Assembly: GCA_964538875.1 (NCBI GenBank) | Contig: CAZIHO010000051.1 | Span: forward strand, 1-22,883 | From: an uncultured Chromatiaceae bacterium | GTDB lineage: Bacteria; Pseudomonadota; Gammaproteobacteria; Chromatiales; Chromatiaceae | Length of the DNA: 22,883 nucleotides | Direction of reading: 5' to 3' | Part shown: in pieces, positions 1,794 through 16,517 of the stretch | How the letters are laid out: each line of letters begins with the position of its first letter | How positions within the stretch are numbered: position 1 is the stretch's first letter | Program-made: the position numbers and the translations under genes | Notes under the pieces: generated by a model | Seen by the model: only the letters and a program-made list of their open reading frames with translations | Database searches by the model: none | What the model was told of the DNA's origin: nothing

Positions 1794-2533
1794 ATAGTCT
1801 CCATCACCAGCCTGGTGAGCCAGCCACGTACCTGGACTATGTCCGGTAGCCGGTACTGGGCAATGGTCGGTTCGGGTCCGACTTTGATCGCGACGCCCCC
1901 CATACGACTGACTGCGGCGAAGGCAGGTTCATCGTTATCGTCGTCGCCGATGAACAGGGGCCGGCGCCCAGCGAATGGCGGTTCGCCCAGGTAAGAGGTG
2001 ATGGCAGTGCCCTTGTCGATCCCCGCCGGCTTGAGTTCGACGACCCGCTTGCCCGCTTGCAACTCGTAACCTGGACCCGCCTGCGCCATTATTTTGGCCA
2101 TAGACTCCTGGACATAGGCCGCTAAGTGGGGCTGACCGCGGTAGTGCAGGGCTAGGGTCAAGCCCTTATCTTCCAATAGCAGGCCAGGTTGCTGCGCCTG
2201 GACCTGTTGCAAGCGGGCCTGGAGTCGCGGCCAGACCGCCGGCCTGGCGGGGCTCCACACCCGCCCTTGGGAGTCACGGCGCTCCAGCCCATGCTGTCCC
2301 GCCATGGGAATGGCCAGGGTTCCCAGCCGGCTATCTAAATCTGCCAGGGAGCGGCCGCTGATCAACGCCAGCGCTCCTCCGGCCACCTGTTTCAGCCGCC
2401 CTAGCAAATCCAGCAGCGGCGCGTCGATTCGCACGGCGTCCGGCCTAGCGGCGATCTCGATCAGGGTGCCATCTAGGTCAAGGAAATAGGCCCAGTTCGA
2501 TTTGGGCGTGGGTGGAACGTTGGTGGGCGACAT
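1790..2533 (-). CDS. otsB: Trehalose-6-phosphate phosphatase (HAD family).
   Basis: HAD motif I 'FLDLDGTL', motif III lysine in 'KPAGIDKG' and motif IV 'LFIGDDDNDE' align with E. coli OtsB (FDLDGTL ... FIGDDLTDE). It lies 22 nt downstream of the otsA stop on the same strand. Confidence 0.9.
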   Translation of the reverse strand: MSPTNVPPTPKSNWAYFLDLDGTLIEIAARPDAVRIDAPLLDLLGRLKQVAGGALALISGRSLADLDSRLGTLAIPMAGQHGLERRDSQGRVWSPARPAVWPRLQARLQQVQAQQPGLLLEDKGLTLALHYRGQPHLAAYVQESMAKIMAQAGPGYELQAGKRVVELKPAGIDKGTAITSYLGEPPFAGRRPLFIGDDDNDEPAFAAVSRMGGVAIKVGPEPTIAQYRLPDIVQVRGWLTRLVMETI

Positions 2534-2555
2534 GGATAGTTGGTACCCCTGACCT

Positions 2556-4790
2556 TCATTTGGCCGGCGCCGCCGGTGTTAGCAACCGTCCCCGGCGACG
2601 CATCAGGGCCGCATCCAGCAGCATACGCCCGGCCCAGCGGTACACGTTGAATTCCATAACCAACGCTCGCATCAACTTCATCCGGTCCCGCTGCTCGGCC
2701 ACGGGCATGGTCATTGCCAGGTGCAAGGCGGCGGCGCATTGGTCCGCATCGTAGGGATTGACGATCAGGGCCTCCGGCAACTCCCTGGCAGCGCCAGTAA
2801 ACTGCGACAGGATCAGCACCCCCAATTCGTCATCATGGGCGGCCACATACTCCTTGGCGACCAGGTTCATGCCATCGTGGAGGCTGCTGACGAAACAGAA
2901 ATCCGCTGCCCGGTAGTATTCATACACCTGAACCGGCTGATGTTGCTCGGCTTTCAGGATGATGGGCGGCATACCGCCTTGGGCGAAGCGTGCGTTGATC
3001 TGTTGGGCCAGGGCCTCGACCCGGGCTTGATGATCTTGGTATTCACCGATCCGGGAGCGCGTCGGAGCGGCGATTTGGATGAAGCTAAAGCGGCCAATCC
3101 ACTCCGGGCGCAGCTCCAGCAGGCGCTCGATGGCCCGGAACCGTTCCACGATACCCTTGGTGTAATCGAGCCGATCCACGCCCACCCCTAGAAGGCAATC
3201 CGCGGGCAGTCCGTTTTGTGTGCGCAACAGCGGGCGGCAGGTCTCCAACGGCCTGGCCAAGCTGGCGTGTAGCGGCGGCCACTCGATGGAAATGGGATAA
3301 CGGCGCACTGCGGTCAGCTTGCCACCAAAGGAGACGGTGTGGGACTCACGATCCACCCGTGCTTCCAGACAGCGATCCACGGTATCCACAAAGTTGTTGC
3401 AATGGAACATGGTGTGGAACCCCAAGATGCTGCTGCCTAGCAAACCGTCCATGATCTCTGGGCCCCAGGGGCAAATGGCGAAGGACTCAGGATTGGGCCA
3501 GGGAATATGCCAGAAGGTGATAATGGTCGCCTCCGGCAGCCGCTCCCGGATCATGCGGGGCGCCAAGGCAAAATGGTAATCCTGAATCAGCACGATGGGA
3601 TCCGGGGTCTTGGCGGTGGCCACCACCGCGTCGGCGAAAATGCGGTTTACCTCGACGTAATAGGCCCAATCCTCTGACCGGAAGGTGGGCCGCACATGGG
3701 CAATGTGGCAGAGGGGCCACAACCCTTCATTTGAGAAACCATAATAATAACCAGTTTCCTGCTCCGGCGTCAGCCAGATTCGCCGCAGGCAATAGACCGG
3801 GTCATCCGGCGGAACCGCGACTTGGTCCCGTGCGTCCACGGTCTCCCGGTCAGCACTGCCGCTGCCGTGGGCGATCCAAACGCCGGAACACGCCCGCATT
3901 ACCGGCTCCATGGCTGTCACCAGGCCGCTGGCCGGACGGTGCACCTCGACCTGACCCTCCCGGCGCAGGTGAATATAGGGTTCCCGGTTAGACACCAAGA
4001 TAACGTCGTCGCCCCGCAATTCTCCCCGGAGAATGGCCCGCAAGGCCTCTGGGGTCCAGGTAATCTGGCTTTCATCCCGGGACCGGTAGCTCGATTCCAA
4101 TTCCCTCAACAACCGCTGCAGATCCCGGGCGATGGGCTGGAATTCGGGGGCGGGAGGAACCGCAGCGAGGCTGGCCTGGGGACGCCGGACCAGCCCCTCG
4201 CCACGAAGAATGGCGCGCATACCCGCAACCCAGCCGCGCCAAGACAACTGGGCGATCACCACGGTAATGAGTGACACCAGCAGGGTGACACCAAGAAACA
4301 CGTAAAACACATATTGCCGCGTCTCGGCGCTGCGCCGTCCGACGAAGCTCATGTCATGGACGATGACCAGTTGTGCCGCAGGTGCCGATGCCGTGGCCAT
4401 GGATTTAACGGCCAGGTGCAATAGGCCATGGGTATTCTCGAGGATTGGACGGCTTTGTTCACGCCAGCGCGACAGGTCGTTACAGTGAATCTCAGACGGC
4501 AATGACGCGGTCGCGATCATAGGGCCTTCGGGTCCAGCGCAATAAGCGAGGGCGAATAAGCGTTCATCCAGGGTGATATTGCTTAGAAACGCCGTGACCT
4601 TGGCCGGCGCCTGCGAGGCTAGCCACAAGGTGAGGGGTTCCCTGATCGCGTTGCTGATCAGATCAGCACGAATATCCAGATCGCGCTCGAACCAGTGCAA
4701 AGTCAACCGGTCTATCAGCGGTACCAGTCCGTACGCGACAAGGCCTAAGGCAAGGATCAAAGGCACAATGAATCGTAACGATATTCGCAT
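2556..4790 (-). CDS. otsA: Trehalose-6-phosphate synthase (GT20), 744 aa, with a ~255-aa N-terminal extension carrying two predicted TM helices.
   Basis: The C-terminal ~480 aa align with E. coli OtsA from '[11 protein letters not shown]' (E. coli 'RLVVVSNRIAPP') through '[15 protein letters not shown]' (E. coli '[17 protein letters not shown]'). The N-terminus has hydrophobic stretches '[20 protein letters not shown]' (aa 7-26) and '[23 protein letters not shown]' (aa ~160-183). A GGGAGGAGG-like RBS (ggaggagggg on the coding strand) lies just upstream of the ATG at 4790. Confidence 0.85.
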
Positions 4791-5000
4791 AGTGGTCCCC
4801 TCCTCCTTTTATTCACATCGTCAGCCGCGCACGATTCCGAAGAAAAACTTGTTGACGGCAACCTAACAGAGGGTAAAGCCTTACCCGCCTTCCGCTTCGG
4901 ACCCTCCAGATTCCGGTGGCGGTTTTTTCGCATACCCTAGGGTAGTAAAGAAAAAAATAGTGCATTGAAATCCCGTTATAGCCCCTTCTGCCTGAGTTGG
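4791..5000 (-). promoter_or_regulatory. Probable promoter / 5'-UTR region of the otsA-otsB-GH15 operon.
   Basis: Non-coding, locally AT-richer sequence ('agtaaagaaaaaaatagtgcattgaaatc') immediately upstream of the otsA start. No -35/-10 boxes could be assigned with confidence. Confidence 0.3.
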
Positions 5001-5690
5001 ACCGCACGGACACAGACCTGTTCTGTCACTGGACCCGGCAAGAGCCGGCGTCCAACAAACACCTGCCCCCGCCAGCCACTGGTGCTGGTAGACGCCCAGC
5101 TAGGGACGAACCAATCTGGCCGTCTGCAAAGGGCGTCGACTAGGCGGACCGCTAACTGGTTGTCATAGGCTATTTTCCTTGGTGCTCTGGGACATTTGGC
5201 TGGACCTGCAACCGGTCGAGCCGTTGGAATATTCCCGGCCGGAGCGCTGGTCGGGGACTGGAGCGGTAAGGCGATTATTCAGCGCTACCCACTTGGTTTT
5301 CATAAAAATTTCTAAAGGCCGCAAACCAGCCAGAACTGGCACCTATAGCCGCCAATACCGATGAACGGTGCCGGGAATCCCGCATATCCCTTTCTCAGGC
5401 GGGGATCCTTGGGCAAACCAAGAGCACTCACTTCCGCCGCAGCTCCCTGACGCTGGCAATAGGAAGTTATGGTCGGTTGACTATCCGGGGACCGGGAATG
5501 ATCTGGGCTTAGTCAGGATCATTCGGTGTTGGCAGCAGGCTGGTTTCCGGTGGATTGCGAATCGGTTCCAGTTCATGCCACAGACGCCGGTGTTGGGCAA
5601 GACTGGTGGCCGCGGACCTGGGCAGCATCCGGACTTCAGGCGCAGCCGCGCCGGTTGCGAGCAATCAATCACTTATGTCACGAGCGGCGC

Positions 5691-6091
5691 ATGGACTTGC
5701 TCAGTTCGGCCGCCTGGGACCTATCCGCCCTGCCGGAACCGGCCCGGACCCTGGTGGCGGAGTTAGTGGCGCATCCGGCGGCTGGGGACCGGGCCTCCTG
5801 TAGCCTGAATTCCCAGGCCGGTCGCTTCGATTTTCGGGCGGAACGCCTGCAGAATCGCCGGGGCTCCGGCGGCCGGATCCTGGTCAACATCAGTCACGCG
5901 GAACCCAGGGATCTGAGTGTGGCCCGGCGCTTGGCGGATTGGTCCCTGGCACCCCAGGAGAAGCGGAGGCGTTGGGCGTGAAGGTGGGAACCCTGAAGAT
6001 GTACATCAACCAGCTCAAGGCCAAGTTGGAAATCGAGTCACGAGAGGCGTTCATCGGCCAACTGTTGGCGGAACCCCCGTCCGATCCTTGA
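5691..6091 (+). pseudogene. Degraded small HTH regulator (LuxR / sigma-70 region-4-like helix-turn-helix) interrupted by a frame change near 5960.
   Basis: Frame ending at stop 6089-6091 reads 'EAEALGVKVGTLKMYINQLKAKLEIESREAFIGQLL'. This resembles the recognition-helix segment of LuxR/sigma70_r4 HTH domains ('IAE.LGIS.GTVK..L..A..KL'). The upstream part ('MDLLSSAAWDLS...ISHAEPRDLSVARRLADWSLAPQE') is in a different frame. No intact ORF joins them. Confidence 0.25.
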
Positions 6092-6445
6092 GGCGCGGCG
6101 CGGACGGGTTGGGTTCCCGGTCGAGGCGTCCTGAATGGTCCGGTGCACCCCATCCCTACCGCGCCCAGCCAGCACGGCCAGCGTCCACAGCCCGCCCGGG
6201 GGGAAAGCGCGCCATCGCCAGGCAACTCACTAGCCGGGGTGCGCCGATACCCCGCGCCGCTCATTTGGGCAATAACCACCCCATCAGCCTTATCCATGGT
6301 TTGTAATGGGCTGCCTATCCGTTATCCGGTGGATTTTTTGCTGGCCAAATGGTCATTGACACATTTTCAATGGGCCATTCCGTGAAAATATTTCTTTAGT
6401 GTTCATGTGCATCATTTACGGTTTTGCTACCCATGGGTCACCCGC

Positions 6446-6464
6446 TTGGGGCACAGTATGTGCG
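6446..6464 (+). promoter_or_regulatory. Possible sigma-54 (-24/-12) promoter-like motif upstream of the MVP-like operon.
   Basis: 'tgGGGCACagtatGTGCg' has GG-N10-GC spacing resembling the TGGCAC-N5-TTGCW consensus, with one mismatch in each element. It lies ~165 nt upstream of the MVP start. It could be chance in GC-rich DNA. Confidence 0.15.
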
Positions 6465-6630
6465 GGACCTGTGCAACGCCCGGCAGGCATGTCCCCAGGG
6501 TTGGCCGGTCAAGCATCCATTTGGTTGCAACCCAATGGGCTGGGGATCCGGCAGCAGCCTCTGGCGGTGACGGGCTTCGACCCCGGACCTGGCCGACCTT
6601 TTACGTCAAAGAGTTTGAAGGGGATTCAAG

Positions 6631-9165
6631 ATGCCAAGAGAAGACGATCGTCCGATGCGCGAAACGGAACTGGTGCTGCCCCCCGGCGTCTTTGCCTTCG
6701 TACTAGATAGCACTAAGGGTAATATAAATACCTATTGCGGCCCCATCAAGCAAAGCCTGAGTAATACCGACCAATTGGTCGTCTATAACGCCGATAGCCG
6801 CCGCTTCCAACCGGCGGCCAATTTCAGCCAGGCGATTCAGACCCATATCACCGCCGCTAAGGGGCACTACGTCATCCTGCAAAACCCGTCCCGGGATGGG
6901 CATCATCCCGAACCGGGCAAAGCGGAGATGTTGCCCCCGAATTTCCTCAAGACCGGGGAAACCGAGAACCTGCCTGGCCCCCAATCCTTTCCCCTCTGGC
7001 CCACCCAGACCGCTGAGGTGGTGTTGGGCCACCAATTGCGTTCTAACCAGTATCTATTGGTGCGGGTTTATGACGAGGAAGGCGCCCGGACCAATTGGAA
7101 CCAGGGCGTCATCAAGCTGGCGGAAACCGCCGGCGTCGGCAATGCGCCCGCCACCTCGGTGCTGGGCATCGATCCCACCGGCCTGTTCACCGGCCAATTG
7201 CTCATCATCATGGGGAATAAGGTCAGTTTCTATATTCCCCCGAGCGGCATCGAGGTCTTACCGGAGAGCGGCGGCACCGAGCCCCGCTATGTGAGGGACG
7301 CGGTGACCCTGGAGCGGCTGGAGTATTGCATCCTGTTGGATGAAAGCGGCCTCAAGCGTTACTTGATCGGCCCGGAAGTGGTCTTTCCCAAACCCACCGA
7401 GCAGTTCGTGATCCGGGACGGCAAGCGCAAATACCGGGCCTATGAATTGACCGACATCAGCGGCCTGCACATCAAGGTCATCGCCGACTACCAAGAACCG
7501 GACGGCGCCTGGCATAAGGCCGGGGACGAACTCTTCATCACCGGCGCCAGCCAGTCGATTTATTATCCCCGGTCGGAACACGCCATCATCAGCTATGGCG
7601 ACCGGGAACTCTATTACGCCATTGCCATTCCCTCCGGGGAAGCCCGCTACCTGATGAACCGTCGCACCGGCGACATTCGCTTGGTGCGGGGTCCGGCGGT
7701 CTATCTGCCCAATCCCATCGATGAGGTGGTGGTCAAGCGCATCCTGAGCGATAGCGAATGCGGCATGTATTTTCCCGGCAATGGCGCGGTGCTGGACTAC
7801 AACCGGTCCCTGCGGACCCGAGGTGCGGGTGGGGCGGCGCCCCTGGAAATGCCACCGGACGGCCCCCGCCCGCCCCCACTCCCGGCGGCGCCAGCCGTCG
7901 CCCTCCGGGAACTCGCTGGCCCTGGTGCCTTCGGCGACACCCTGCAACGGGTAGCGACCTACACTCCCCCACGCACCATCACGCTGGACACCAAGTTCGA
8001 GGGGGCGGTGACCATCGATGTCTGGTCCGGGTACGCGGTGCAGGTGGTGAATCGCCAAGGGGAACGCCGGGTGGTGACCGGCCCCCAAACGGTCTTGCTG
8101 GCCTATGACGAGATCCTGGAACCCCTGGCCCTGAGCATGGGCACTCCCAAGGACCCGGCCCGCACCCTCAAGACCGTCTATCTCCGGGTCCGCTCCAATG
8201 CGGTCAGCGACCGGGTCAGCGTCAAAACCCGGGACCTGGTCCCCCTCACCGTGCAGTTGAAGTACCTGGTGCGGTTCGACGGTGATCAAGCGAGCTGGTT
8301 CAACATCGACAACTACATCCAATACCTTTGCGACCATTTGCGCTCCCTGATCGGCAATCAGGTGCGGGCGATCGGGGTGCTGGAGTTCTATTTTTCCGCC
8401 GCCACCCTGCTGCGGGACCTGGTGTTGGGCGCCAAGGCCCAGGACGGCAGCCGGCCGTTGCGGCATTTTGCGGAAAACGGCATGACAGTCTATGACCTGG
8501 AGGTGATTAGCATCTCCATCGACGATGACCGCATCGACCAACTGCTGCACCAATCCCAGCAAGAGAATCTGCTCAACACCATCGAGTTGGAACGGCAACA
8601 GCGCCTGCATCTGCTCACTGCCGGCCAGGAACAGGCCAAGCGCCAGATCGAGCAGGAGCGGGCCACTACCCAGGCCCTCACTCAACAGCTGTTGCTGGAC
8701 ATTAGCGAAGGTCAGGACCGGCTGGCCATGGCGGAAATTCAATCCCAGACGAGCCGGGAACAGCAACGGGCCAACGGGACCCTGGAAGTACAGGCGATCG
8801 ACAGCCGCATCGCCGCAATGCGGCTGGCGGAGCGCCAGGCGCAGTTGGAAAGCGAGGCCCATTTTGCCCACCTGGCCCTGGAACAGCGCCTGCGGGAGAG
8901 CGATGCCCAGGCCCGCCACCTCACCGAGCAAATGGCGGCCATCCAACCTGCCCTGGTAGAGGCGCTGACCGCCATCGCCGCCACCGGCACCCTGCAATCC
9001 CTAGCGGAACATCTGGCGCCCCTGAGCCTGGTAAGGGACCAAAGTCTGGCGGCCACCCTGGAGCAGATGTTCCGGGGCACCCCCCTGGCGGGGCTGTTGG
9101 ACAACCTGCGTCAACTGGGCCAGGGACGGCTGTTGCAAGGAGAGGACCCGGCCGATGCCAGCTAG
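6631..9165 (+). CDS. Major vault protein (MVP)-like protein, 844 aa.
   Basis: The N-terminus 'ELVLPPGVFAFVLDSTKGNINTYCGPIKQSL...VVYNADSRRFQPA...KGHYVILQNPSRDG...GPQSFPLWPTQTAEVV' parallels human MVP '[32 protein letters not shown]...VLFAPMRMVTVPP...PRHYCTVANPVSRDAQG...AQDPFPLYPGEV'. Repeated ~55-aa MVP-repeat-like segments follow, and the Gln/Glu/Arg-rich C-terminal helical region resembles the MVP cap-helix. An AAGGGG RBS lies 8 nt upstream of the ATG. Confidence 0.85.
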   Translation: MPREDDRPMRETELVLPPGVFAFVLDSTKGNINTYCGPIKQSLSNTDQLVVYNADSRRFQPAANFSQAIQTHITAAKGHYVILQNPSRDGHHPEPGKAEMLPPNFLKTGETENLPGPQSFPLWPTQTAEVVLGHQLRSNQYLLVRVYDEEGARTNWNQGVIKLAETAGVGNAPATSVLGIDPTGLFTGQLLIIMGNKVSFYIPPSGIEVLPESGGTEPRYVRDAVTLERLEYCILLDESGLKRYLIGPEVVFPKPTEQFVIRDGKRKYRAYELTDISGLHIKVIADYQEPDGAWHKAGDELFITGASQSIYYPRSEHAIISYGDRELYYAIAIPSGEARYLMNRRTGDIRLVRGPAVYLPNPIDEVVVKRILSDSECGMYFPGNGAVLDYNRSLRTRGAGGAAPLEMPPDGPRPPPLPAAPAVALRELAGPGAFGDTLQRVATYTPPRTITLDTKFEGAVTIDVWSGYAVQVVNRQGERRVVTGPQTVLLAYDEILEPLALSMGTPKDPARTLKTVYLRVRSNAVSDRVSVKTRDLVPLTVQLKYLVRFDGDQASWFNIDNYIQYLCDHLRSLIGNQVRAIGVLEFYFSAATLLRDLVLGAKAQDGSRPLRHFAENGMTVYDLEVISISIDDDRIDQLLHQSQQENLLNTIELERQQRLHLLTAGQEQAKRQIEQERATTQALTQQLLLDISEGQDRLAMAEIQSQTSREQQRANGTLEVQAIDSRIAAMRLAERQAQLESEAHFAHLALEQRLRESDAQARHLTEQMAAIQPALVEALTAIAATGTLQSLAEHLAPLSLVRDQSLAATLEQMFRGTPLAGLLDNLRQLGQGRLLQGEDPADAS

Positions 9166-11782
9166 CCTTAGCACCCAGCCCTTCACGCTGATCCTGGCGG
9201 ACAGCCTCACCAACGACTTCATGGGCGGCGGGGCGTTCGAGCAAACCGGAGTACATATCGGCCAGCGGGACGTGGAGCGGCTGATGGGGGCCGGCAGCGC
9301 GGCCGGCAACGGCCCCCTGCCCACTTTCTTGAGTCAGGCGGTGGCAGCCCGCCGCCAAGGCCGGCCCATCGGCCTGATCCTGGTGCGGGATTGCCACGAC
9401 CCCAAAGACCCGGACCAACTGCCGGAACTGCTCCGCTATGGCCGTCATAACGTCCGGGGCGAACAAGGCGCCGCCTTTTTGCCCTTCCTCAAGCCCCTGC
9501 TAAGTGCGGCCGCCATCCTGGAAACCCGCTCCCTGTCCCTGCCCCTCAAATCTCTGCGGCGGGTGACGCGACGCCTGTTAGGACAGGATCTACTGACCCT
9601 GAACGGGGAACAGCGGCGGCTGCTACGCTGGGTGCTGGTGGGGTGCCACACGGACAAGCGGATCCTGGGCACCGCCAATCTGTTGCGCAACGTGTTGGAA
9701 TTTCCCAATGTCGCGGTCTGCCCCCATCTGGTGGGGAGCAGTAACCACGAGGCCCACCTGGCCAGCTTGCAGGTGGCTCTGCCGGATGCCTTGGTGCAGG
9801 TGTTTCCCGATCTCCGCGCCCTGCTGGGGTTCGCCGGCCTGGCGAAAAAGCCGTTCCGCCAGTTCGACTGCCGGGGCGCGGCGCTGGGGCCACCCGGCGT
9901 GATCCAGTCCTTGAACGCGGACCAGAGGCACATCCTGGAGCTGGCTTTTCTCCGTTGCTCCCAGGTGACCCTGCAACCTTTGAGCGGCGGATTTAGCGGC
10001 AGTCTGCTGTGGCTGGCGCGGCGCCAGATCGACGGCGTGGCGGGGGCGCCGGTGGTGGTCAAGATCGACCGGCATGGGGCTATGCAAAAGGAATTGGAAG
10101 GCTACGACCGGGTCAAGGCCATCTTTGGTAGTCAGGTGCCCAGCTTCGGTACGCCCATCTCGTCCGGCGGTCATACCGGCATCCTCATGGAACTGGCCTC
10201 CCGTTCCGGCACGCCCCACACCCTGCAATGGCTGTTTGAGCAGGCGGTGGAACAGCGCGACCCGGACCAATTCCTAGCCCCGCTCCGGGCCAGCCTGGAA
10301 TTGCTGCACCAGCGCCTGTACCGGCCCACCTTGCGCCGGTGCCGCTTCTCGCCCTGGCAGCGGCTCGGGCTGTCCGCGCCCCAGCAATGGGAGTGGCTCA
10401 GGGAGAATATCGGCCACATCACCAACGACGGCTGGCAAGGCGGCCCGATCCGGCTGACGCCGGATCTGGTGTTGGAGGACTTCACCGCCCTGTTCCAGCA
10501 ACTGGCCGCCGACTCCCATTGGCTGCCCGGCGCCCATTGCCTTGGCCATGGAGATCTGAACCTGGCCAACATCATCCTGGATGACCTGGCCAATGTCTGG
10601 TTCATCGACTGGACCCACGCCGGGTTGCTGCCCGTGGAATTGGATCTGGCCAAGCTGGAAAACGACATCAAGCTGGTGGTCAGCAAGGGGCTGGCCCACC
10701 AGGACCTGGGGGACCTCCTGATCCTGGAGCGTCTGCTGCTGGAACAGCGGCTACCCCTGCCCCTGGAGGAAGCGGCCAAGCGGTTGCCGGGGTTGGCCAG
10801 CGACCCGCACCTGGCCTTGGTTTACCAATCCGTGGCCGCCATCCGCCAGCGATACGCGGACCTGCATCCAGAGCAGGATGACACCCTGTATCAAATCGCC
10901 TTGCTGCGTTATGCCACCCATACCCTCAGTTTCGATGCCCGGCGCGGGCGGGGCGAGTGCAGCTTGGAGCAACTGCGACACGCCCTGGGCACCGTGCATC
11001 TGCTGGTGCAACAACTGGCTAGGGGCGATTTTCACCGGCTGACCCCCGCCGTGCGGCCCGACTCCTACCCGGACCGGCAACGGCTACCCCGGGAACTGGC
11101 ACCCTGGCCAGTGCCCTGTCCGGACTATCAGCCCCCCTTCCATGAGGACCCCATCCTGTCCCACAGCGACTGGGCTGATCCCCTGGACATGGACTGGGCG
11201 CCGCCGGATGACGCCGACCCTTGGCGGGACCCCCTGGGCCGTCCCCTCAATCCACGGGGCCGCACCGGCTTGGCGGGACGGGGGCTGCTGGGCCGCTGGG
11301 GCGCCAACCGGGCGGTGGATCCGGTTATCACCCGGATCAATCCCGGTAACGGCCGGCTGGAACTGCTGCTGGGCCGCCGTTGGGACACCGGCGAAAGCTC
11401 CCTGCCAGGCTGTATGCGGCTGGCGGGGGAAAGCGAGGCCCAGGCCCTGGTCCGCTGCCTGCGGCTCAAGGCCGGGATTTCCCTGCCCATGAAAGCGGGC
11501 AGCCGGGTCTACCGGGGGCCGGTGGACGATTTCCGGGACACGGACCACGCCTGGATCGAAAGCAGCACCTGGAGTTGGCATTTGACCGGCAAGGCGGCCC
11601 GGCGCCTGTACTTCCGGGGCGGCGGCGGTCTCGGCGAACTGGGCTGGACGGGCATCAGCCCCGAACTGCTGCGGAGCCTGTTCGCGGGCCACGCGGACCT
11701 GGTACGGTGCGCCCTGCGCTGGCGGGCCGCCCGCCGCGAGCCCGGCGCCGATCAGATGGAACAGCTTTTACGGGAGAGTTGA
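9155..11782 (+). CDS. Three-domain protein, 875 aa: N-terminal isochorismatase/cysteine-hydrolase-like domain, central APH/protein-kinase-like phosphotransferase domain, C-terminal NUDT9-type Nudix (ADP-ribose-binding/pyrophosphatase-like) domain.
   Basis: N-terminal domain: '[11 protein letters not shown]...[13 protein letters not shown]...[13 protein letters not shown]...[18 protein letters not shown]' follows the isochorismatase/PncA pattern (VIDxQNDF ... HCVxGTxGAxF ... VVGIATDxCV). Middle domain: '[30 protein letters not shown]' is the HGD catalytic loop plus the DFG-equivalent of APH/choline-kinase-fold enzymes. C-terminal domain: '[29 protein letters not shown]' and '[25 protein letters not shown]' closely match human NUDT9 ('[29 protein letters not shown]', '[25 protein letters not shown]'). 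The start overlaps the MVP stop by 11 nt, with an AGGAGA RBS upstream. Confidence 0.8.
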   Translation: [875 protein letters not shown]

Positions 11783-11789
11783 CCTGACC

Positions 11790-12353
11790 TTGGAACGAAC
11801 CTCCACCACCCACCCCATCCGCATCGACTGGGTGTCCCTGGGCGGCCGGGGCCGCATCGGCATGACCTTCTGTCCCGGCAAGGTCCAGGACGACGCCTGG
11901 ACCGGCCGCTGGCGCCGGGATCTAGGCACCGATCTGCTGGCCATCCGCCGCTGGGGGTGCCGCCTGCTGCTGTCCCTGATCGAGGAACCGGAATACCTGG
12001 AATTAGGCGTTCCAAATCTGGGAGCAGAGGCCCAGCGCTACGGCTTGGCCTGGCAGCCGCTGCCCATCCGGGATCGATGCGCCCCGGACCAGCGTTTCGA
12101 GGCGGCCTGGCCCCAGCTATGGCCACAGGTGCAAGAGGTATTAGAGCAGCGGGGAGACCTGGTGCTGCACTGCAAAGGCGGACTGGGACGCACCGGAACC
12201 CTGGCCGCCTGCCTGCTGGTCAGTTTCGGCGAGTCACCGGCCAGCGCCCTGGGCCGGGTGCGTCTGGCCCGTCCGGGAACGGTGGAAACCCCGGCCCAGG
12301 AAGCCTATGTGCGGGCTTGGCCCGCCAGGTGGGCAAGTCTGGGCCAAAAATAA
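11790..12353 (+). CDS. CDKN3/KAP-like dual-specificity protein phosphatase (CX5R active site), 187 aa, TTG start.
   Basis: Active-site loop 'LHCKGGLGRTGTLAACLLVS' matches the CX5R signature (HCxxGxGR[ST]G). It is especially close to human CDKN3 'IHCYGGLGRSCLVAACLLLY'. A GGGAGAG RBS lies 11 nt upstream of the TTG, and the gene begins 7 nt after the previous stop. Confidence 0.7.
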   Translation: MERTSTTHPIRIDWVSLGGRGRIGMTFCPGKVQDDAWTGRWRRDLGTDLLAIRRWGCRLLLSLIEEPEYLELGVPNLGAEAQRYGLAWQPLPIRDRCAPDQRFEAAWPQLWPQVQEVLEQRGDLVLHCKGGLGRTGTLAACLLVSFGESPASALGRVRLARPGTVETPAQEAYVRAWPARWASLGQK

Positions 12354-12388
12354 GTCAGGCCCATCCTGGATGCGCCGGGATCAGACCA

Positions 12389-12690
12389 GATCCACCCGGC
12401 TGCCGTTCCATTGGACCGCCCCGGTCCCGGCCCTCGTACACCCGGGAGCCTGGCGCACGGCTGCCAATCAGTACCCATGTCCCAGCGGTTGGGATAGGGT
12501 TTCCAGGCGCCTTCGATGCCGCTGGTGGTGGCGCAACCCCCCAGGCCAGACCTGCTCACCATCTCCAAACTGCCCGGCGATGCTGTTACCCGCATCATCA
12601 GCCGGCACTATGCCCACCTGTGCCACAACACCCTGAAAGCTGCCGTCACCAATCGGCCCAGCTTGGGGCATCAGGCCGAAACCAAAAGGA
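12389..12690 (-). pseudogene. katG: Catalase-peroxidase (katG) gene fragment, internally deleted and frameshifted.
   Basis: DNA is ~88% identical to two separate parts of the intact katG in this window. Segment 12389-12480 matches katG 17925-18025 (C-terminal lobe, 'DMGTDWQP...'). Segment 12472-12560 matches katG 19018-19095 (N-terminal lobe, '[11 protein letters not shown]...WDMG'). The two are joined at a shared 'cccatgtcc' (DMG) junction. An 8-nt indel ('tgccccgg') and further indels break the frame. Confidence 0.65.
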
Positions 12691-12788
12691 AGCCAGACCC
12701 ACGGTCTGCACGTGCAAGCGCAGACGTGCCCTGCAAGGGGATGGGCGCGGAGCGGGAACGCGCTGGCGGGAGTGGCATCCGACGACGG

Positions 12789-13070
12789 ATAGGAAATCCA
12801 ACCGGCCCAGGAAACCATCCCTTTTTGTTGTTTATGATCAGATAGTTAGCGAGCACCCGGATGTAGGTTTAGTAGGCTGGAGGCACCTGCCAAAGCCTCC
12901 GGTAAGAATCTGGCGGCAGGTTTTTAGCGGTTGGGAAGCAGACGGGGAACCGCTTGCGGAATCTAACGCAAGCTCAATCCAGCTTCGCACCAGGTGGCCT
13001 CACAGAACTCTCGGTTAGTATGCCGGTGCCTCGGCTGCGGAACCGCTTACCAACTGCCGGTCTGGTCGAA
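12789..13070. repeat. 282-bp repeat element, copy 1 (no terminal inverted repeats; probable non-autonomous mobile element).
   Basis: Direct sequence comparison shows ~93% identity to 14198-14480 over the full length, in the same orientation. Contains conserved hairpins ('ctggaggc-acctgccaaa-gcctccgg', 'gcttgcg-gaatctaa-cgcaagc'). Confidence 0.85.
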
Positions 13071-13121
13071 TTGGCCGACGACTCGGCCGAGGCCGTGTTT
13101 GCCAGGATCAAGGGGCGGTGA
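13071..13121 (+). pseudogene. 3'-terminal remnant (~16 codons) of an antitoxin gene (TIGR02574-like 'addiction module component'), truncated by the upstream repeat.
   Basis: Frame reads '...LVELADDSAEAVFARIKGR*', with TGA overlapping the GTG start of the downstream ParE-like gene (GTGA). The '...IPAEEVFARLRAR'-type C-terminus is typical of antitoxins paired with the RFPY-type RelE/ParE toxins. The match to the repeat consensus ends at exactly 13070. Confidence 0.35.
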
Positions 13122-13412
13122 GGATTCGCGTCCTCTCCCGCGCCGAGGAAGAATTTGTTGAAGCGGTCAAGATACAACAATGAGCGTCCCAGACTTGGCC
13201 ACGAGTACATTGAGGAGGTGCAGGCCGTCTTCGACCGCATTCATGCCTTCCCCGACCCATGCCCGATCTTTTCCGTCCGTGCGCGTCGCTGCCTCGTCAG
13301 GCGTTTCCCGTATCCTATCCTCTACCAAGTCCGCGCCGACCGCATCCTCGTTCTCGCCATCATGCACCTCAAGCGTGACCCCAATGCCTGGCGCCAACGG
13401 GCAACCAACTGA
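13118..13412 (+). pseudogene. RelE/ParE-family toxin gene (~98 codons) with a +1 frameshift near 13171.
   Basis: N-terminal frame: 'VRIRVLSRAEEEFVEAVK', then premature stop at 13181. The rest is in the -2 frame: 'YNNERPRLGHEYIEEVQAVFDRIHAFPDP...VRRFPYPILYQVRADRILVLAIMHLKRDPNAWRQR'. Together they match the ~97-aa RelE/ParE toxins ('YRIRVLPRAE..L.EI..YY......LG..FL.EV......I...P........VRRAPVRRFPYGVFYRV.GD.VVVLAVYHTRRDP..W'). A single extra 'a' in 'aag A tac aac' creates the shift. Confidence 0.6.
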
Positions 13413-13631
13413 GCCGTCTCGTATCGCAGCACCGATAACTTCGGTTGATCGTTCCCGCACGGGAAGCGACTCTTGGGATTGGAGCTTATGGATACTGCTC
13501 CGCCCGCTTCACCCGCTTGTAGAGATCCTTCTCACGGGGTTCCAAGGGCGTAGCCGGGCAGGGGTTGAGGACCTCCACCCTGCGGTTGGCGTTGTACTGG
13601 ACTGGACCACCACCCGCGGGGCGGGTCTACC

Positions 13632-14108
13632 CTATGGCTTCTTCAGCGGATCGTTGGCGACCTTGGGGTCCAGGTAATCGATCAGCGCCACGAGGCCGCC
13701 CTTCAAGGCGTAGACGTTACTGAAGCCGATGTCCCGCAGGGCCACGGCGATCAGGGTGCAGCGCAGTCCCTGCTGGCAAACTACCAGGACCTTCTTGTCG
13801 GTGGGGATCCGCGCGAGATTGTCCGGTTGAAACACCTCGTTCATCTGCATGGACAAGGTATCCGGGTTACCGATACCGAGCACGCGGCGTTCCGCTGGCG
13901 TACGCACATCCAGTATCACCACGGACTCGCCGGCCTTGATCCAGTTGACCAGCGTTTCCGGGGGTATCCTGGCCAGGGCCTTGGGGGTATTGGCATCGGC
14001 GAAGGGGGCGAACAGCCCCTCGTACTGTTTGGCCTTGGTCGCGTCATAGGCACCGGCCGTGCCCATGAGCAGCATCAGCAGGGGCAGCATGAACAGGCGC
14101 CATTTCAT
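13632..14108 (-). CDS. Periplasmic single-domain rhodanese (sulfurtransferase), 158 aa, with signal peptide.
   Basis: N-terminal signal peptide 'MKWRLFMLPLLMLLMGTAGA'. Rhodanese active-site loop 'VVCQQGLRCTLIAVALRDIGFSNVYALKGG' (Cys in the CxxGxR loop). A GAGGAG RBS lies 7 nt upstream. Confidence 0.8.
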   Translation of the reverse strand: MKWRLFMLPLLMLLMGTAGAYDATKAKQYEGLFAPFADANTPKALARIPPETLVNWIKAGESVVILDVRTPAERRVLGIGNPDTLSMQMNEVFQPDNLARIPTDKKVLVVCQQGLRCTLIAVALRDIGFSNVYALKGGLVALIDYLDPKVANDPLKKP

Positions 14109-14197: not shown

Positions 14198-14480
14198 ATA
14201 GGAAATCCAACCGGCCCAGGAAACCATCCCTTATGTTTCGTTTATGATCAGATACTTAGCGAGCACCCGGATGTAGGTTTAGTAGGCTGGAGGCACCTAC
14301 CAAAGCCTCTGGCAAGAATCTGGCGGCAGGCTTTTAGCGGTTGGGAGGCAGACGGGGAACCGCTTGCGGAATCTAACGCAAGCTCAATCCAGCTTCGCAC
14401 CAGGTGGCCTCACAGAGCTCTCGGTTAGTATGCCGGTGCCTCGGCTGAGGGACCGCTTACCAACTGACGGTCTGGTCAAA
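14198..14480. repeat. 282-bp repeat element, copy 2.
   Basis: ~93% identical to 12789-13070 in the same orientation. It lies immediately 3' of the IS91-family transposase C-terminal remnant on the minus strand. Confidence 0.85.
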
Positions 14481-14886: not shown

Positions 14887-15004
14887 ATGGGCGACTCGGC
14901 TCCCATGAGCGTCTGGCTGTCCAAAAAGTCCTGCGCCAGATCGCTGCTTATGGCGGTGACATCCCGAAGGAATTGATCGTCTAATTGCAAGTAGAAAGTC
15001 AATA

Positions 15005-15035
15005 GCGCGGACAAATGTCCGCGCCGTTTTTCTTA
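15005..15035. terminator. Stem-loop terminator-like hairpin immediately after the GT2 gene stop, possibly bidirectional.
   Basis: 'GCGCGGACA-aat-TGTCCGCGC' is followed on the + strand by 'CGTTTTTCTT' and on the - strand by 'TATTGACTTTCT'. It starts directly after the TGA of the 15036-16517 gene. Confidence 0.5.
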
Positions 15036-16517
15036 TCAGGGAAGTCGTGGAGTTATGGTAATGGAGGAAACAGGCACTCCAAGCAATCTTTTATCTTTAG
15101 GGACAAGCCAGGGCTCGCAAGTTAATGCAAAACGGGTTGGTGCATCTTCGTTTACCTGAAACGAAATCCTTCGCGGAGCGCGTTCCTGCAAAACTGGCAT
15201 TGGCTTCTCGTTGATATAAAATTTTAAATTCTCTATAGGCCGAATAGCCATTAACCAGTCAATCTCCAGATCATAATTACCCGGCACCAGGGAAATTTCT
15301 ATCATTGCAACGGGTTCGCTCCACCTAAATCTTTTGCCCTGCCATTCTTCAGAAGCATAAAAGCCCCCAAAAGGGTAAGAGCGCGCTTCATCCGCAGTCC
15401 ATCGTAGGGATGAAGTGGCTGCTGAAGGCTTTTCCTCAATATCGAAAGCGAAGCGAACTCTTTCAAGCTTAACCGTCGCATCGATCAGCTGCAAAAATTG
15501 TGTGTGTAGATAAGATTTTCCGAACCGCAAATTGAGCAAAAGGGTTAAGAGCCATCGTTTAACTTGAAATCGAAGCCAGGCATGGGTCAGGGATGTTCTC
15601 TTTAATGTTTCAAATGGAAAACTTAATCTAAGTAACATCAAGCCGCGTGCAAATATCTCACGAGGGCTCAAACATCTTCGGAAAGACTTCGAATGCGAAT
15701 TGGATGACAGCCTAAATGCCCTGTCATATAATCTCGAATTCCATCGATAGAAATTCAGCCACTCGAGCGGGTCTGGAAAATAAGAGCGGCTTTCATCATC
15801 TTTATATTTTGAAAGGTATGTCATTTCCCCACGGGCAAAATCTTCCGAAAATTTAATTAACTCTTTTATTTCTCCGATATAATAATGATGCACTTGGGCT
15901 TCTGGTACATACCCGATTTGATATCCATTTTGGTGCATTCGGGCAGCTAAATGCCATTCAGCAAAGTGACCAAGTTCGGGGTTAAATCCGCCTGCCTTAT
16001 GGTAATTTCCTGCACGCACTACAAAACATTGATCTAATATTCTCCTCCAAGGACATTCATTCATACCATAAAGGAGATCGGCTTCATACATATCGGCTTC
16101 GATCACAGACAGGCGATTGTGCGTTATACGAATAGATTGGCAGGAAAACCCTGCCCAGTCCGGATGTTCATCAATCGCTTTATCTGCTACGGACAAAATA
16201 TTTCGATCTGGCAAAACATGAGATTCGGTGAAAAACAATATTTCACCTTGGGCTTGTCGGGCGCCAAATGCACATAAAGCCATGTCGTGAGGCTCATCAA
16301 AGAGCAACAATCGATCATATTCACTCAATAGGGTCTTGAAATATGCAATTGTCTTTAAATCTAATGAGAATCGGCACCCAACAGCAACGACTTCAAATTG
16401 TTCGCGCAGGTAATCTTGCTCTTTAACCCAACGGCGTAGACATTCTTCACTTTGCCCACGATGGAACTCTAATGGAATAATGATCGAAAAACGAAAGGAC
16501 GGTTTTTTTTCAGCCAT
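15036..16517 (-). CDS. Family-2-like (GT-A fold) glycosyltransferase with a ~250-aa C-terminal domain of unknown function, 493 aa, low GC.
   Basis: N-terminus 'FSIIIPLE' and 'AQGEILFFTESHVLPD' match the GT2 start and DxD region. '...VRAGNYHKAGGFNPELGHFAEWHLAARMHQNGYQIGYVPEAQVHH' matches the GT2 'GGF.E......ED.DL..R....G..I.Y.P.A.V.H' region. Local GC (~45%) is far below the flanking DNA. It is 33 nt downstream of the sulfotransferase gene on the same strand. Confidence 0.65.
   Translation of the reverse strand: MAEKKPSFRFSIIIPLEFHRGQSEECLRRWVKEQDYLREQFEVVAVGCRFSLDLKTIAYFKTLLSEYDRLLLFDEPHDMALCAFGARQAQGEILFFTESHVLPDRNILSVADKAIDEHPDWAGFSCQSIRITHNRLSVIEADMYEADLLYGMNECPWRRILDQCFVVRAGNYHKAGGFNPELGHFAEWHLAARMHQNGYQIGYVPEAQVHHYYIGEIKELIKFSEDFARGEMTYLSKYKDDESRSYFPDPLEWLNFYRWNSRLYDRAFRLSSNSHSKSFRRCLSPREIFARGLMLLRLSFPFETLKRTSLTHAWLRFQVKRWLLTLLLNLRFGKSYLHTQFLQLIDATVKLERVRFAFDIEEKPSAATSSLRWTADEARSYPFGGFYASEEWQGKRFRWSEPVAMIEISLVPGNYDLEIDWLMAIRPIENLKFYINEKPMPVLQERAPRRISFQVNEDAPTRFALTCEPWLVPKDKRLLGVPVSSITITPRLP

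What the first reader, a model, noticed from the sequence alone, without database searches (positions are those of the whole stretch)
6631..12353. Bacterial major-vault-protein homologue in an operon with an ADP-ribose-domain kinase-like fusion protein and a CDKN3-like phosphatase.
The operon has three overlapping or near-overlapping genes:
- MVP-like gene (844 aa), overlapping the next gene by 11 nt.
- 875-aa isochorismatase-like / APH-kinase-like / NUDT9-like protein, followed 7 nt later by the next gene.
- CDKN3/KAP-like CX5R phosphatase.

MVP is the shell protein of eukaryotic vault particles. Bacterial homologues are rare and, to my knowledge, functionally uncharacterised.

Eukaryotic vaults carry vPARP, an ADP-ribose polymer synthase, and bind PTEN, a CX5R phosphatase. 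Here the bacterial MVP is transcriptionally coupled to a NUDT9-type ADP-ribose-recognising domain, a kinase-fold domain and a CX5R phosphatase.

This looks like a self-contained NAD+/ADP-ribose-linked signalling or compartment module. It could be a bacterial vault-like nanocompartment with its own client or regulator proteins. The functional link is inference, not established.
Basis: partly seen in the sequence, partly recalled or inferred. Interest (0 to 1): 0.9.

Follow-up and report, generated by a model that had tools for sequence, protein, structure and literature searches.

The report
Bacterial vault-protein gene beside ADP-ribose-sensor kinase
A real bacterial copy of the vault shell protein sits in one tight gene cluster with a kinase flanked by two "dead-enzyme" domains that probably sense NAD breakdown products, plus a matching phosphatase; the kinase and phosphatase are a conserved pair, but their link to the vault protein was found only in this one lineage and remains unproven.

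Summary
Three tightly packed same-strand genes encode:
- a full-length MVP homologue;
- an 875-aa protein with isochorismatase-like, APH/TCAD9 kinase and NUDT9-like domains;
- a CX5R dual-specificity phosphatase.

All three folds of the middle protein were confirmed by sequence and structure. Its kinase residues are invariant or nearly so across 94 relatives. The Nudix box and the isochorismatase nucleophile are lost, so the flanking domains are probably ligand sensors rather than enzymes.

The kinase–phosphatase link is well supported. Several proteins elsewhere fuse an ORF3-like phosphatase to the same kinase core, and most relatives have a different phosphatase (IMPase family) directly downstream.

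The MVP link is not conserved. None of 163 MVP loci from reference genomes and viral contigs has an ORF2- or ORF3-like neighbour. None of 80 ORF2-family loci has an MVP. Bacterial MVPs have no conserved neighbours at all. The three-gene arrangement recurs only in ~99%-identical strains.

MVP homologues are also not rare, and the nearest relatives with readable context (52–54% identity) lie on jumbo-phage-like contigs.

Verdict: a real, probably co-transcribed but lineage-specific cluster. It is an interesting lead given recent evidence that vaults bind ADP-ribose, but it is not an established system.

The parts
6631..9165 (+). Major vault protein (MVP) homologue, 844 aa: N-terminal beta-rich repeat region, SPFH-like shoulder (residues ~520-631), long cap helix (residues 633-770) and a C-terminal helical region.
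   Evidence: Pfam MVP_shoulder 6.4e-20 and Vault_3 4.7e-11. phmmer to rat MVP 9e-19, colinear over residues 225-370 and 466-793. AF2 shoulder and 138-residue helix at pLDDT 75-89. Foldseek top 12 hits all MVP, E 5e-19 to 5e-16. 45-64% identical full-length relatives. Synonymous changes dominate between strains.
9137..9165 (+). MVP/ORF2 junction: Shine-Dalgarno AAGGAGAGG (9137-9145) inside the MVP 3' end, ORF2 ATG at 9155, MVP stop TAG at 9163-9165 (11-nt overlap). Suggests translational coupling.
   Evidence: Direct reading of the sequence; ORF coordinates.
9155..9859 (+). ORF2 residues ~1-235: isochorismatase/nicotinamidase-fold domain. It lacks the catalytic Cys (Arg169 at that position), so it is a predicted pseudo-enzyme that binds a ligand.
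9881..11023 (+). ORF2 residues ~243-623: APH/choline-kinase-like kinase domain (Pfam TCAD9) with a complete catalytic set. It is the predicted active enzyme of the protein.
11051..11782 (+). ORF2 residues 633-875: NUDT9-like domain (NUDT9_N cap plus Nudix fold) with a degenerate Nudix box (RCLRLK in place of REFGEE). Predicted to bind ADP-ribose-type ligands without hydrolysing them, as in the human TRPM2 NUDT9-H domain.
11773..11789 (+). ORF2/ORF3 junction: Shine-Dalgarno GGGAGAG (11773-11779), ORF2 stop TGA (11780-11782), 7-nt spacer, ORF3 TTG start at 11790.
   Evidence: Direct reading of the sequence.
11790..12353 (+). CDKN3/KAP-like dual-specificity (PTP-fold) phosphatase, 187 aa, with an intact HCX5R(T) P-loop. 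Predicted partner that reverses the ORF2 kinase.
   Evidence: Pfam PTP-SAK 6.6e-12, Tc-R-P 1.6e-10, CDKN3 1.5e-8. Motif HCKGGLGRT. 37% identity (E 2e-27) over residues 10-179 to the C-terminal domain of the fusion protein P0109.

Best explanation
The region holds two separable things that are joined only in this lineage.

(1) A genuine, full-length bacterial MVP. By homology it is presumably a self-assembling shell or scaffold protein. It belongs to a sub-clade that is sister to MVPs on jumbo-phage-like contigs.

(2) A kinase/phosphatase signalling pair from a conserved but uncharacterised family. In ORF2, an active APH/choline-kinase-like (TCAD9) kinase sits between two pseudo-enzyme domains. 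One is a nicotinamidase-fold domain without its Cys nucleophile. The other is a NUDT9-fold domain without its catalytic Nudix glutamates.

The most likely mechanism is inferred, not shown. The dead domains act as sensors for NAD+-derived ligands: ADP-ribose or a derivative at the NUDT9-like domain, and a nicotinamide-like compound at the other. Ligand binding switches the central kinase. The CX5R phosphatase ORF3 removes the phosphate that the kinase adds. The substrate is unknown. A small sugar- or nucleotide-type hydroxyl is favoured by the kinase fold and by the IMPase-family phosphatase that replaces ORF3 in most relatives. A protein substrate is not excluded.

The three genes are very probably co-transcribed here (11-nt overlap, 7-nt gap, internal ribosome-binding sites). 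Outside this species-level population, both modules always occur apart. MVP is therefore not an obligatory partner. Whether it is a target, a scaffold or only a co-expressed gene is open.
For: Shown:
- Gene structure and junctions.
- Coding signature and synonymous-dominated differences between strains in all three genes.
- MVP identity.
- All three ORF2 folds.
- Kinase catalytic residues 93-94/94; Nudix 'RE' Glu 0/94; isochorismatase Cys position is Arg in 85/94; NUDT9 ligand-side motifs retained.
- ORF3 P-loop.

ORF2-ORF3 coupling:
- Five fusion proteins (P0108, P0109, P0403, P0429, P0431) carry an ORF3-like PTP domain where the NUDT9 domain normally sits.
- An IMPase-family gene (Pfam 7.6e-25) lies directly downstream in 36 of 52 family loci, mostly within -8 to +11 nt.

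Autonomy of the two modules:
- 0 of 163 MVP loci have ORF2/ORF3 relatives and 0 of 80 ORF2-family loci have an MVP.
- MVPs have no conserved neighbours.
- The nearest MVP and the nearest ORF2 relatives stand alone.
- The arrangement recurs only in ~99%-identical contigs.

Signalling context of the family: SpoIIE-HATPase_c_2 sensor proteins plus STAS upstream in several loci, and an HATPase_c_2 fusion P0302.
Against: - No ligand, substrate or activity was tested; the sensor role rests on motif loss and on analogy with the human TRPM2 NUDT9-H domain.
- About half of the family keeps the last Nudix-box Glu, so weak hydrolysis in some members cannot be excluded.
- Overlapping genes in one operon are usually functionally related, which argues that the MVP link may be real in this organism.
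- The thematic match with eukaryotic vaults is striking: TEP1 is an NADase, PARP4 uses NAD+, and ADP-ribose binds the MVP shoulder (PMC12280208; bioRxiv 10.64898/2026.05.01.722283).
- The surveys covered only the best 80 of at least 355 (GTDB), the best 80 of at least 268 (IMG/VR) and the best 80 of at least 199 (metagenome) loci. They looked only at +/-10 kb, so genome-level co-occurrence was not tested.
Confidence: 0.6

Rival explanations
1. First reader's model. The three genes form a dedicated bacterial vault-like nanocompartment system. MVP builds the shell, and the ADP-ribose-sensing kinase and the phosphatase are its clients or regulators, for example by phosphorylating MVP to control assembly, opening or cargo in response to NAD+ breakdown.
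For: - 11-nt overlap with an internal Shine-Dalgarno and a 7-nt gap imply co-translation and co-expression.
- The arrangement is stable across several strains and all three genes show synonymous-dominated differences.
- Eukaryotic vaults bind NAD+/ADP-ribose in the MVP shoulder and house an NADase and a PARP.
- The ORF2 NUDT9-like domain keeps its ligand-side motifs.
Against: - No co-occurrence in 163 MVP loci or 80 ORF2-family loci.
- Both modules function elsewhere without each other.
- ORF2 has no extra domain or lineage-specific insert that could serve as an MVP-targeting element. All 875 residues are accounted for by three domains shared with relatives that are not linked to an MVP.
- The basic NAD+-pocket residues of human MVP are mostly replaced; only K506 is kept as K507, while R504->T, R507->D, H509->A, W545->V, P565->D and K573->D.
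Confidence: 0.17
2. Pure juxtaposition. MVP (possibly acquired from, or exchanged with, jumbo phages) landed next to an unrelated kinase-phosphatase pair. The shared transcript has no functional meaning.
For: - The linkage is unique to one species-level population.
- The window MVP and L161 are sister to a clade on jumbo-phage-like contigs.
- The cluster is flanked by 1.3-1.8 kb without convincing genes and by a repeat element downstream.
- Between-strain divergence is higher in MVP-ORF2-ORF3 than in the GH15 and GT20 flanks.
Against: - A start codon embedded 11 nt inside the upstream gene, with its own strong ribosome-binding site, is typical of established operons.
- GC3 is similar in all three genes and in the neighbours, so there is no sign of a very recent insertion.
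Confidence: 0.18
3. ORF2 is a metabolic NAD-salvage enzyme (an active nicotinamidase plus ADP-ribose pyrophosphatase plus kinase) rather than a sensor, and the cluster is a catabolic or salvage operon.
For: - JGI annotations name relatives 'ADP-ribose pyrophosphatase' or 'nicotinamidase-related amidase'.
- The window protein and a few relatives retain a nicotinamidase-like RDxHDP...H.V.G..GA segment.
- An IMPase-family partner would suit small-molecule metabolism.
Against: - The catalytic Cys position is Arg/Gln/His in 94/94 members.
- The Nudix 'RE' Glu is absent in 94/94, and the window copy keeps none of the three Nudix glutamates.
- Neighbours of the family are signalling proteins (PAS-SpoIIE-HATPase_c_2, STAS, cNMP-binding channels, hybrid kinases), not salvage enzymes.
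Confidence: 0.05

Closest known systems
Eukaryotic major vault protein (rat 4V60/4HL8, human 9BW5/9MXJ)
   Same: Colinear full-length similarity. It shares the shoulder (SPFH-like) domain, Vault_3 repeat, long cap helix and overall length (844 against 861-893 aa).
   Different: Only about 18-21% identity in structure-based alignments. Most repeat units fall below Pfam thresholds. No vPARP, TEP1 or vault RNA is present in the window. The NAD+/ADP-ribose pocket residues are mostly not conserved. Particle formation is untested.
MVP homologues on jumbo/huge-phage contigs and in other bacteria (P0115, P0126; LR756500.1, LR756501.1; Myxococcota, Cytophagales, Sericytochromatia and others)
   Same: 45-64% identity over the full length and the same Pfam signature. 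The window MVP and L161 are sister to the phage-like clade.
   Different: None of these has ORF2- or ORF3-like neighbours. The window is a bacterial chromosomal context, with trehalose genes, a KatG-type peroxidase and a PAS histidine kinase.
NUDT9 and the NUDT9-H domain of TRPM2
   Same: The NUDT9_N cap plus Nudix fold, with 30% identity to human NUDT9 and conserved ligand-side motifs. As in human TRPM2, the Nudix box is degenerate: RCLRLK here, REFGEE in NUDT9 and RILRQE in human TRPM2 in the phmmer alignments. This suggests a binding role rather than catalysis.
   Different: It is fused to a kinase rather than an ion channel, and it is bacterial. The ligand is unknown.
Isochorismatase/nicotinamidase (PncA) family
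   Different: The catalytic Cys is replaced by Arg169 and the catalytic Lys is not conserved. Most family members have deleted the metal-site segment.
TCAD9 / APH-choline-kinase-like kinases of vWA-MoxR-VMAP 'ternary' conflict systems (Kaur et al. 2020, PMC7159879)
   Same: Pfam TCAD9 match well above the cut-off, with a complete kinase motif set.
   Different: No vWA, MoxR or VMAP genes are in the window or in the family loci examined. The usual context is instead a phosphatase (IMPase or PTP) with or without a partner-switching module.
CDKN3/KAP and PTP-SAK-type dual-specificity phosphatases
   Same: Pfam matches above the cut-offs and an intact HCX5R(T) P-loop.
   Different: A minimal single-domain bacterial protein. 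Its closest relatives found here are C-terminal domains of isochorismatase-TCAD9 fusion proteins. The substrate is unknown.

Membership tests
Major vault protein (MVP) | Shoulder (SPFH-like) domain | tested here: met
   Pfam MVP_shoulder 71.8 bits against a cut-off of 25, residues 523-631. AF2 pLDDT 76-89 there.
Major vault protein (MVP) | Array of N-terminal MVP repeat domains (nine in eukaryotes) | tested here: inconclusive
   Vault_3 43.1 bits is above its cut-off of 28.8, but Vault scores 17 against a cut-off of 27. phmmer aligns residues 225-370 to rat repeats. Foldseek aligns more than 740 columns to MVP chains and matches R1-R7 at 1e-4. However, the AF2 model is low-confidence in residues 1-520, so the repeats could not be counted.
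Major vault protein (MVP) | Long cap helix after the shoulder | tested here: met
   A single helix spans residues 633-770 at pLDDT 73-89. It aligns with rat residues ~648-812.
Major vault protein (MVP) | NAD+/ADP-ribose pocket residues of the human shoulder (R504, K506, R507, H509, R511, W545, P565, K573) | tested here: not met
   In the phmmer alignment only K506 (K507), P505 and P508 are kept. The replacements are R504->T, R507->D, H509->A, W545->V, P565->D and K573->D. The alignment is at low identity, so confidence is moderate.
Major vault protein (MVP) | Assembly into a closed 39-fold half-vault cage | not testable with these tools
   Needs expression and electron microscopy.
Vault particle (system) | Minor components vPARP, TEP1 and vault RNA encoded or associated | tested here: not met
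   No PARP, TROVE, NACHT or DUF4062 hit among the window ORFs scanned. No Rfam family reached its threshold anywhere in the window.
NUDT9-type ADP-ribose pyrophosphatase | NUDT9_N cap plus Nudix fold | tested here: met
NUDT9-type ADP-ribose pyrophosphatase | Catalytic Nudix box GX5EX7REUXEEXGU | tested here: not met
   The window has RCLRLK in place of REFGEE. The 'RE' Glu is absent in 94/94 members, the next Glu is present in 7/94 and the last in 47/94.
Isochorismatase / nicotinamidase | Isochorismatase fold | tested here: met
Isochorismatase / nicotinamidase | Catalytic Cys nucleophile (Asp-Lys-Cys triad) | tested here: not met
   The position equivalent to the Cys in the G-x-x-T-D-x-C motif is Arg169: R 85, Q 8, H 1 of 94. 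The mapping rests on motif alignment from general knowledge of the family.
TCAD9 / APH-like kinase | Pfam TCAD9 above the gathering score, with kinase catalytic residues | tested here: met
vWA-MoxR-VMAP ternary conflict system | Adjacent vWA, MoxR AAA+ and VMAP genes | tested here: not met
   None among the window ORFs scanned with Pfam.
Dual-specificity / CDKN3-like PTP | HCX5R(S/T) P-loop and a family profile above the cut-off | tested here: met
   HCKGGLGRT. PTP-SAK 46.2 bits against 27 and CDKN3 35 bits against 20.7.
Known anti-phage defence systems (PADLOC) | Match of any of the three proteins to a PADLOC model | tested here: not met
   No hit at E <= 0.1 for the three proteins or for two downstream ORFs.

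The most novel reading that the evidence does not exclude
In this lineage, MVP forms a vault-like shell whose assembly, opening or contents are controlled by an ADP-ribose/NAD+-metabolite-sensing kinase and its phosphatase. This would be a prokaryotic, genetically compact precedent for the newly recognised link between vaults and NAD+/ADP-ribose. It would offer a minimal three-gene system in which vault function could be dissected.
Probability: 0.15. Interest if true: 0.85.

Novelty: new variant of a known kind. Interest (0 to 1): 0.5.

Why it matters
Vault function is a long-standing puzzle. Work from 2025-2026 shows that the eukaryotic MVP shoulder binds NAD+/ADP-ribose and that TEP1 is an NADase. 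A bacterial operon that couples MVP to an ADP-ribose-type sensor kinase and a phosphatase would be a simple, testable model, if the coupling is functional.

Independently of MVP, the ORF2 family is of interest in its own right. It combines a pseudo-nicotinamidase domain, an active kinase and a pseudo-NUDT9 domain, and it is paired with an IMPase or a PTP phosphatase. It has about 110 clusters at 90% identity across many phyla. No description of this architecture turned up in the literature I could search. It looks like a bacterial counterpart of the logic by which NUDT9-H gates TRPM2, and it could be a new route of NAD+-metabolite signalling.

The survey also shows that bacterial MVPs are stand-alone genes, and that a sizeable share of the MVP homologues found lie on contigs classed as viral, several of them jumbo-phage-like. 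That changes where one should look for the function of prokaryotic vault proteins.

Tried and rejected
- **PADLOC and NCBIfam** gave nothing informative for the three proteins.
- **Rfam and tRNA scans** of the window were empty.
- **Promoter and terminator scan** gave no more sites than shuffled controls. No promoter was found upstream of MVP and no terminator after ORF3.
- **Origin of 'TCAD9'.** The term is absent from the text and the held supplement of Kaur et al. 2020. Only a figure legend elsewhere ties it to vWA-MoxR-VMAP systems.
- **Literature searches** for a nicotinamidase-kinase-NUDT9 fusion found nothing relevant.
- **AF2 model of MVP** was poor overall (pLDDT 58, pTM 0.26). Only the shoulder and cap helix were used, and the repeat count was abandoned.
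- **Exact look-up of the window ORF2** found no gene record. The source population was reached through the GT20 protein instead.
- **A called gene 163 nt downstream of ORF3** was rejected as a real gene. It has poor coding composition and frameshift differences between 99%-identical strains.
- **First tree attempt** timed out. In the second tree, four long branches (L006, L045, L047, L059) are artefacts of crude ORF extraction and were ignored.
- **A defence-island reading** was considered and not adopted. There are no PADLOC hits and the flanks are metabolic genes.
- **Neighbours of other MVPs** were inspected by eye rather than by Pfam.
- **The source organism** was not identified; the last large homology search was left unused.


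Full report

Yes. The ORF listing gives 6631-9165 (+, 844 aa), 9155-11782 (+, 875 aa) and 11790-12353 (+, 187 aa, TTG start). The ORF2 ATG at 9155 lies 11 nt inside the MVP gene, whose stop TAG is at 9163-9165. It is preceded by AAGGAGAGG at 9137-9145. The ORF3 TTG follows the ORF2 stop after 7 nt and is preceded by GGGAGAG.

All three ORFs have the composition of real genes in this GC-rich genome: GC3 0.78-0.82 and GC2 0.43-0.55. Overlapping and flanking alternative ORFs do not. Against a strain about 99% identical (L171), synonymous codon differences outnumber non-synonymous ones: 17 to 6 in MVP, 35 to 10 in ORF2 and 6 to 3 in ORF3. This is the pattern expected under purifying selection.

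**2. What the three proteins are**

*MVP.*
- Pfam MVP_shoulder 6.4e-20 and Vault_3 4.7e-11 are both above their cut-offs. The generic Vault repeat is below its cut-off.
- phmmer against PDB sequences finds only MVP chains (rat 9e-19). The match is colinear, with repeats at residues 225-370 and R9/shoulder/cap helix at 466-793.
- The AlphaFold2 model is poor overall (pLDDT 58). It is confident for the shoulder and for a single helix spanning residues 633-770, which fits the cap helix.
- Foldseek puts twelve MVP chains first (E 5e-19 to 5e-16, more than 740 aligned columns), followed by SPFH proteins.

*ORF2.*
- Pfam sees only TCAD9 (3.5e-29), plus a weak APH hit on a sub-fragment.
- The C-terminal 240 residues match human NUDT9 (2.2e-23) and the NUDT9-H domains of TRPM2 channels.
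- The AlphaFold2 model built from 21 homologues is good (pLDDT 83.5, pTM 0.78).

A census over 94 full-length relatives shows three things:
- The kinase is intact. The GG(F/Y)(S/T)GS loop, K303, E313, H465, G466, D467, N472, I484, D485 and W486 are in 94/94, and N469 is in 93/94.
- The Nudix box is degenerate. The Glu of 'RE' is absent in 94/94. The window copy has RCLRLK where NUDT9 has REFGEE. The ligand-side signatures GRTGxxGRG...WGxN and DxRxTDHAW are nearly invariant.
- The position of the isochorismatase Cys nucleophile is Arg169 (85/94).

ORF2 is therefore an active kinase flanked by two pseudo-enzyme domains. The degenerate Nudix box parallels human TRPM2, which shows RILRQE at this position in the phmmer alignment. 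From general knowledge, that TRPM2 domain binds ADP-ribose but does not hydrolyse it.

*ORF3.* PTP-SAK, Tc-R-P and CDKN3 profiles all score above their cut-offs, and the HCKGGLGRT P-loop is intact.

**3. Are the genes functionally linked?**

*ORF2 with ORF3: yes, very probably.*
- The homology search with ORF2 found about 110 clusters with the same three-domain architecture in many phyla. It also found two proteins (P0108, P0109) in which a CDKN3/PTP-SAK domain follows the isochorismatase-TCAD9 core.
- ORF3 is 37% identical (E 2e-27) over its whole length to residues 607-771 of P0109. Residues 1-576 of P0109 align with ORF2 residues 1-594 (E 6e-35).
- An exhaustive profile search added three further fusion clusters of this kind: P0403, P0429 and P0431.
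- In 80 metagenomic loci of the ORF2 family, the commonest neighbour is an inositol-monophosphatase-family gene (Pfam 7.6e-25). It lies directly downstream on the same strand in 36 of 52 loci with enough sequence, mostly within -8 to +11 nt. P0309 may be a fusion with such a phosphatase, although the Pfam hit is weak and below its cut-off.

A kinase followed by a phosphatase is thus the conserved unit. In this window the phosphatase is of the PTP type rather than the IMPase type.

Several loci also carry a sensor-SpoIIE(PP2C)-HATPase_c_2 gene and a STAS gene upstream, and P0302 fuses an HATPase_c_2 domain to the family core. This places the family in signalling contexts rather than metabolic ones.

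*MVP with ORF2/ORF3: not conserved.*
- A scan of one genome per GTDB species found at least 355 species with an MVP. None of the 80 best loci has an ORF2- or ORF3-like gene within 10 kb.
- Clustering all neighbours of those 80 loci gave no conserved partner at all. Same-strand close neighbours are heterogeneous.
- At least 268 IMG/VR contigs encode an MVP. None of the 80 best has ORF2/ORF3 relatives.
- Conversely, none of the 80 ORF2-family loci has an MVP. Twenty of them have at least 2.6 kb upstream, which is enough to hold one.
- Profile-HMM searches of six-frame translations confirmed all of this. The only exception was one weak PTP-like hit (E 5e-4) about 4 kb from an MVP.
- The closest MVP (P0112, 64% identity) has no ORF2-like start in the 564 nt downstream. 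The closest ORF2 homologue (P0002, 43% identity) stands alone next to a histidine-kinase gene.
- The three-gene arrangement recurs only in contigs 99.0-99.4% identical to the window, from several metagenome runs. It is a stable feature of one population, not independent evidence.

**4. The vault/ADP-ribose analogy**

Recent papers show NAD+, ADP and ADP-ribose bound in the human MVP shoulder (PMC12280208). They also show that TEP1 is a TIR-like NADase inside the vault (bioRxiv 10.64898/2026.05.01.722283).

However, in the phmmer alignment to rat MVP only K506 of the listed pocket residues is kept, as K507, which is invariant among bacterial MVPs. R504, R507, H509, W545, P565 and K573 are replaced, three of them by Asp. 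At this level the pocket is not conserved. The identity is low, so I treat this as moderate evidence only.

ORF2 also has no domain or insert that is absent from relatives not linked to an MVP and that could target it to a shell.

**5. Context and origin**

The window is a 22.9-kb NCBI contig with chromosomal genes: GH15, trehalose-phosphate phosphatase and synthase, rhodanese, a KatG-type peroxidase and a PAS hybrid kinase.

After P0112/L161, the window MVP's nearest relatives (52-54% identity) lie on contigs that look like jumbo phages. L259 and L260 (the latter from a 400-kb contig) carry dozens of small ORFans, a T4 gp5-like hub, HNH and GIY-YIG nucleases and R2K genes. In a neighbour-joining tree, the window and L161 are sister to that clade. 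GenBank huge phages LR756500.1 (462 kb) and LR756501.1 (735 kb) also encode full-length MVPs at 38% identity. ORF2 has no match in GenBank phage records.

Similar GC3 in the three genes and their neighbours gives no sign of a very recent insertion. The cluster is flanked by 1.8 kb and 1.3 kb without convincing genes, and downstream by a repeat at which other assemblies break.

**6. Most likely mechanism**

*Shown:* gene arrangement, folds, motif status, fusion and neighbourhood statistics.

*Inferred:*
- ORF2 is a ligand-regulated kinase whose two dead-enzyme domains sense NAD+-derived molecules. The NUDT9-like domain would bind ADP-ribose or a derivative, and the nicotinamidase-like domain a nicotinamide-like compound.
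- ORF3 reverses the kinase's product.
- The substrate is more likely a small sugar- or nucleotide-type hydroxyl than a protein. The kinase has the APH/choline-kinase fold, and IMPase-family partners typically act on small phosphomonoesters (general knowledge of the family). A protein substrate, including MVP or a STAS protein, is not excluded.
- Co-transcription with MVP is probable. A functional tie to MVP is possible; my estimate is 15-35%, depending on how strong a tie is meant.

**7. Novelty and verdict**

Bacterial MVPs are already described (PMC3762200; bioRxiv 10.1101/872010; viral MVPs in bioRxiv 10.1101/2023.11.10.566534). The searches of these papers that I ran found no neighbourhood analysis. 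The ORF2 architecture is catalogued only through its Pfam kinase domain, and my searches found no paper describing it. The MVP-ORF2-PTP operon is new, but it is a singleton.

I rate it a new variant of known kinds, with interest 0.5. It is a sound lead for experiments, and its ORF2/ORF3 half is well supported. The headline claim of a bacterial vault/ADP-ribose module is not supported by comparative evidence.

Noticed in passing
window 12789-12967 and 14198-14377: A near-identical direct repeat brackets the rhodanese gene (13632-14108, minus strand). It is about 100 nt at 91-100% identity, extending to about 180 nt at 90%. Independent assemblies of the same population break at ~12967, so it is probably a multi-copy element in the genome.
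   Followed up: partly
window ~15000-17600: A low-GC island (42-46% against ~62-66% elsewhere). It carries a sulfotransferase-family gene (16551-17579, minus strand) and a 493-aa ORF (15036-16517, minus strand) with no Pfam hit and non-native codon composition. It is probably horizontally acquired.
   Followed up: no
L259 (24-kb contig), L260 (400-kb contig), L179-L258; GenBank LR756500.1, LR756501.1, LR756503.1: MVP homologues are common on viral contigs: at least 268 IMG/VR contigs and three GenBank huge-phage records of 462-735 kb. In two phage-like loci the MVP lies between a Methyltransf_21 gene and an RF-1-domain gene. A vault-shell protein in jumbo phages suggests a phage-built compartment or scaffold and deserves its own study.
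   Followed up: partly
L081-L154 (ORF2-family loci), e.g. L096 341-3958 and L110 6628-9552: The isochorismatase-TCAD9-NUDT9 family usually has an IMPase-family gene directly downstream. It often has a sensor-SpoIIE(PP2C)-HATPase_c_2 gene plus a STAS gene (a partner-switching module) upstream. Na/Pi cotransporter, Na/H exchanger and cNMP-binding channel genes are also nearby. Variants carry PTP (P0403, P0429, P0431), HATPase_c_2 (P0302) or no C-terminal domain.
   Followed up: partly
window 6631-12353 compared with 6-4790 (against L169 and L171): Between strains ~99% identical, codon differences are several-fold denser in MVP, ORF2 and ORF3 than in the adjacent GH15 and GT20 genes. For example, ORF2 has 45 differing codons against L171, while GT20 has 2. 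The trehalose-phosphatase gene is also elevated. This may reflect recombination or a locally deeper coalescence.
   Followed up: no
window 4791-6630 and 12354-13630: The cluster is flanked by 1.8 kb and 1.3 kb with no ORF showing the genome's coding signature. Gene callers place a 96-aa ORF at 5691-5981 (no Pfam hit, nearly identical between strains). They also call a downstream ORF from 12516 that differs by frameshift between strains and is probably not a gene.
   Followed up: partly
L175-L178 (IMG/VR giant-virus MAG contigs): Stand-alone NUDT9-like domains (25-33% identity to the ORF2 C-terminus) occur on contigs labelled as giant-virus MAGs.
   Followed up: no
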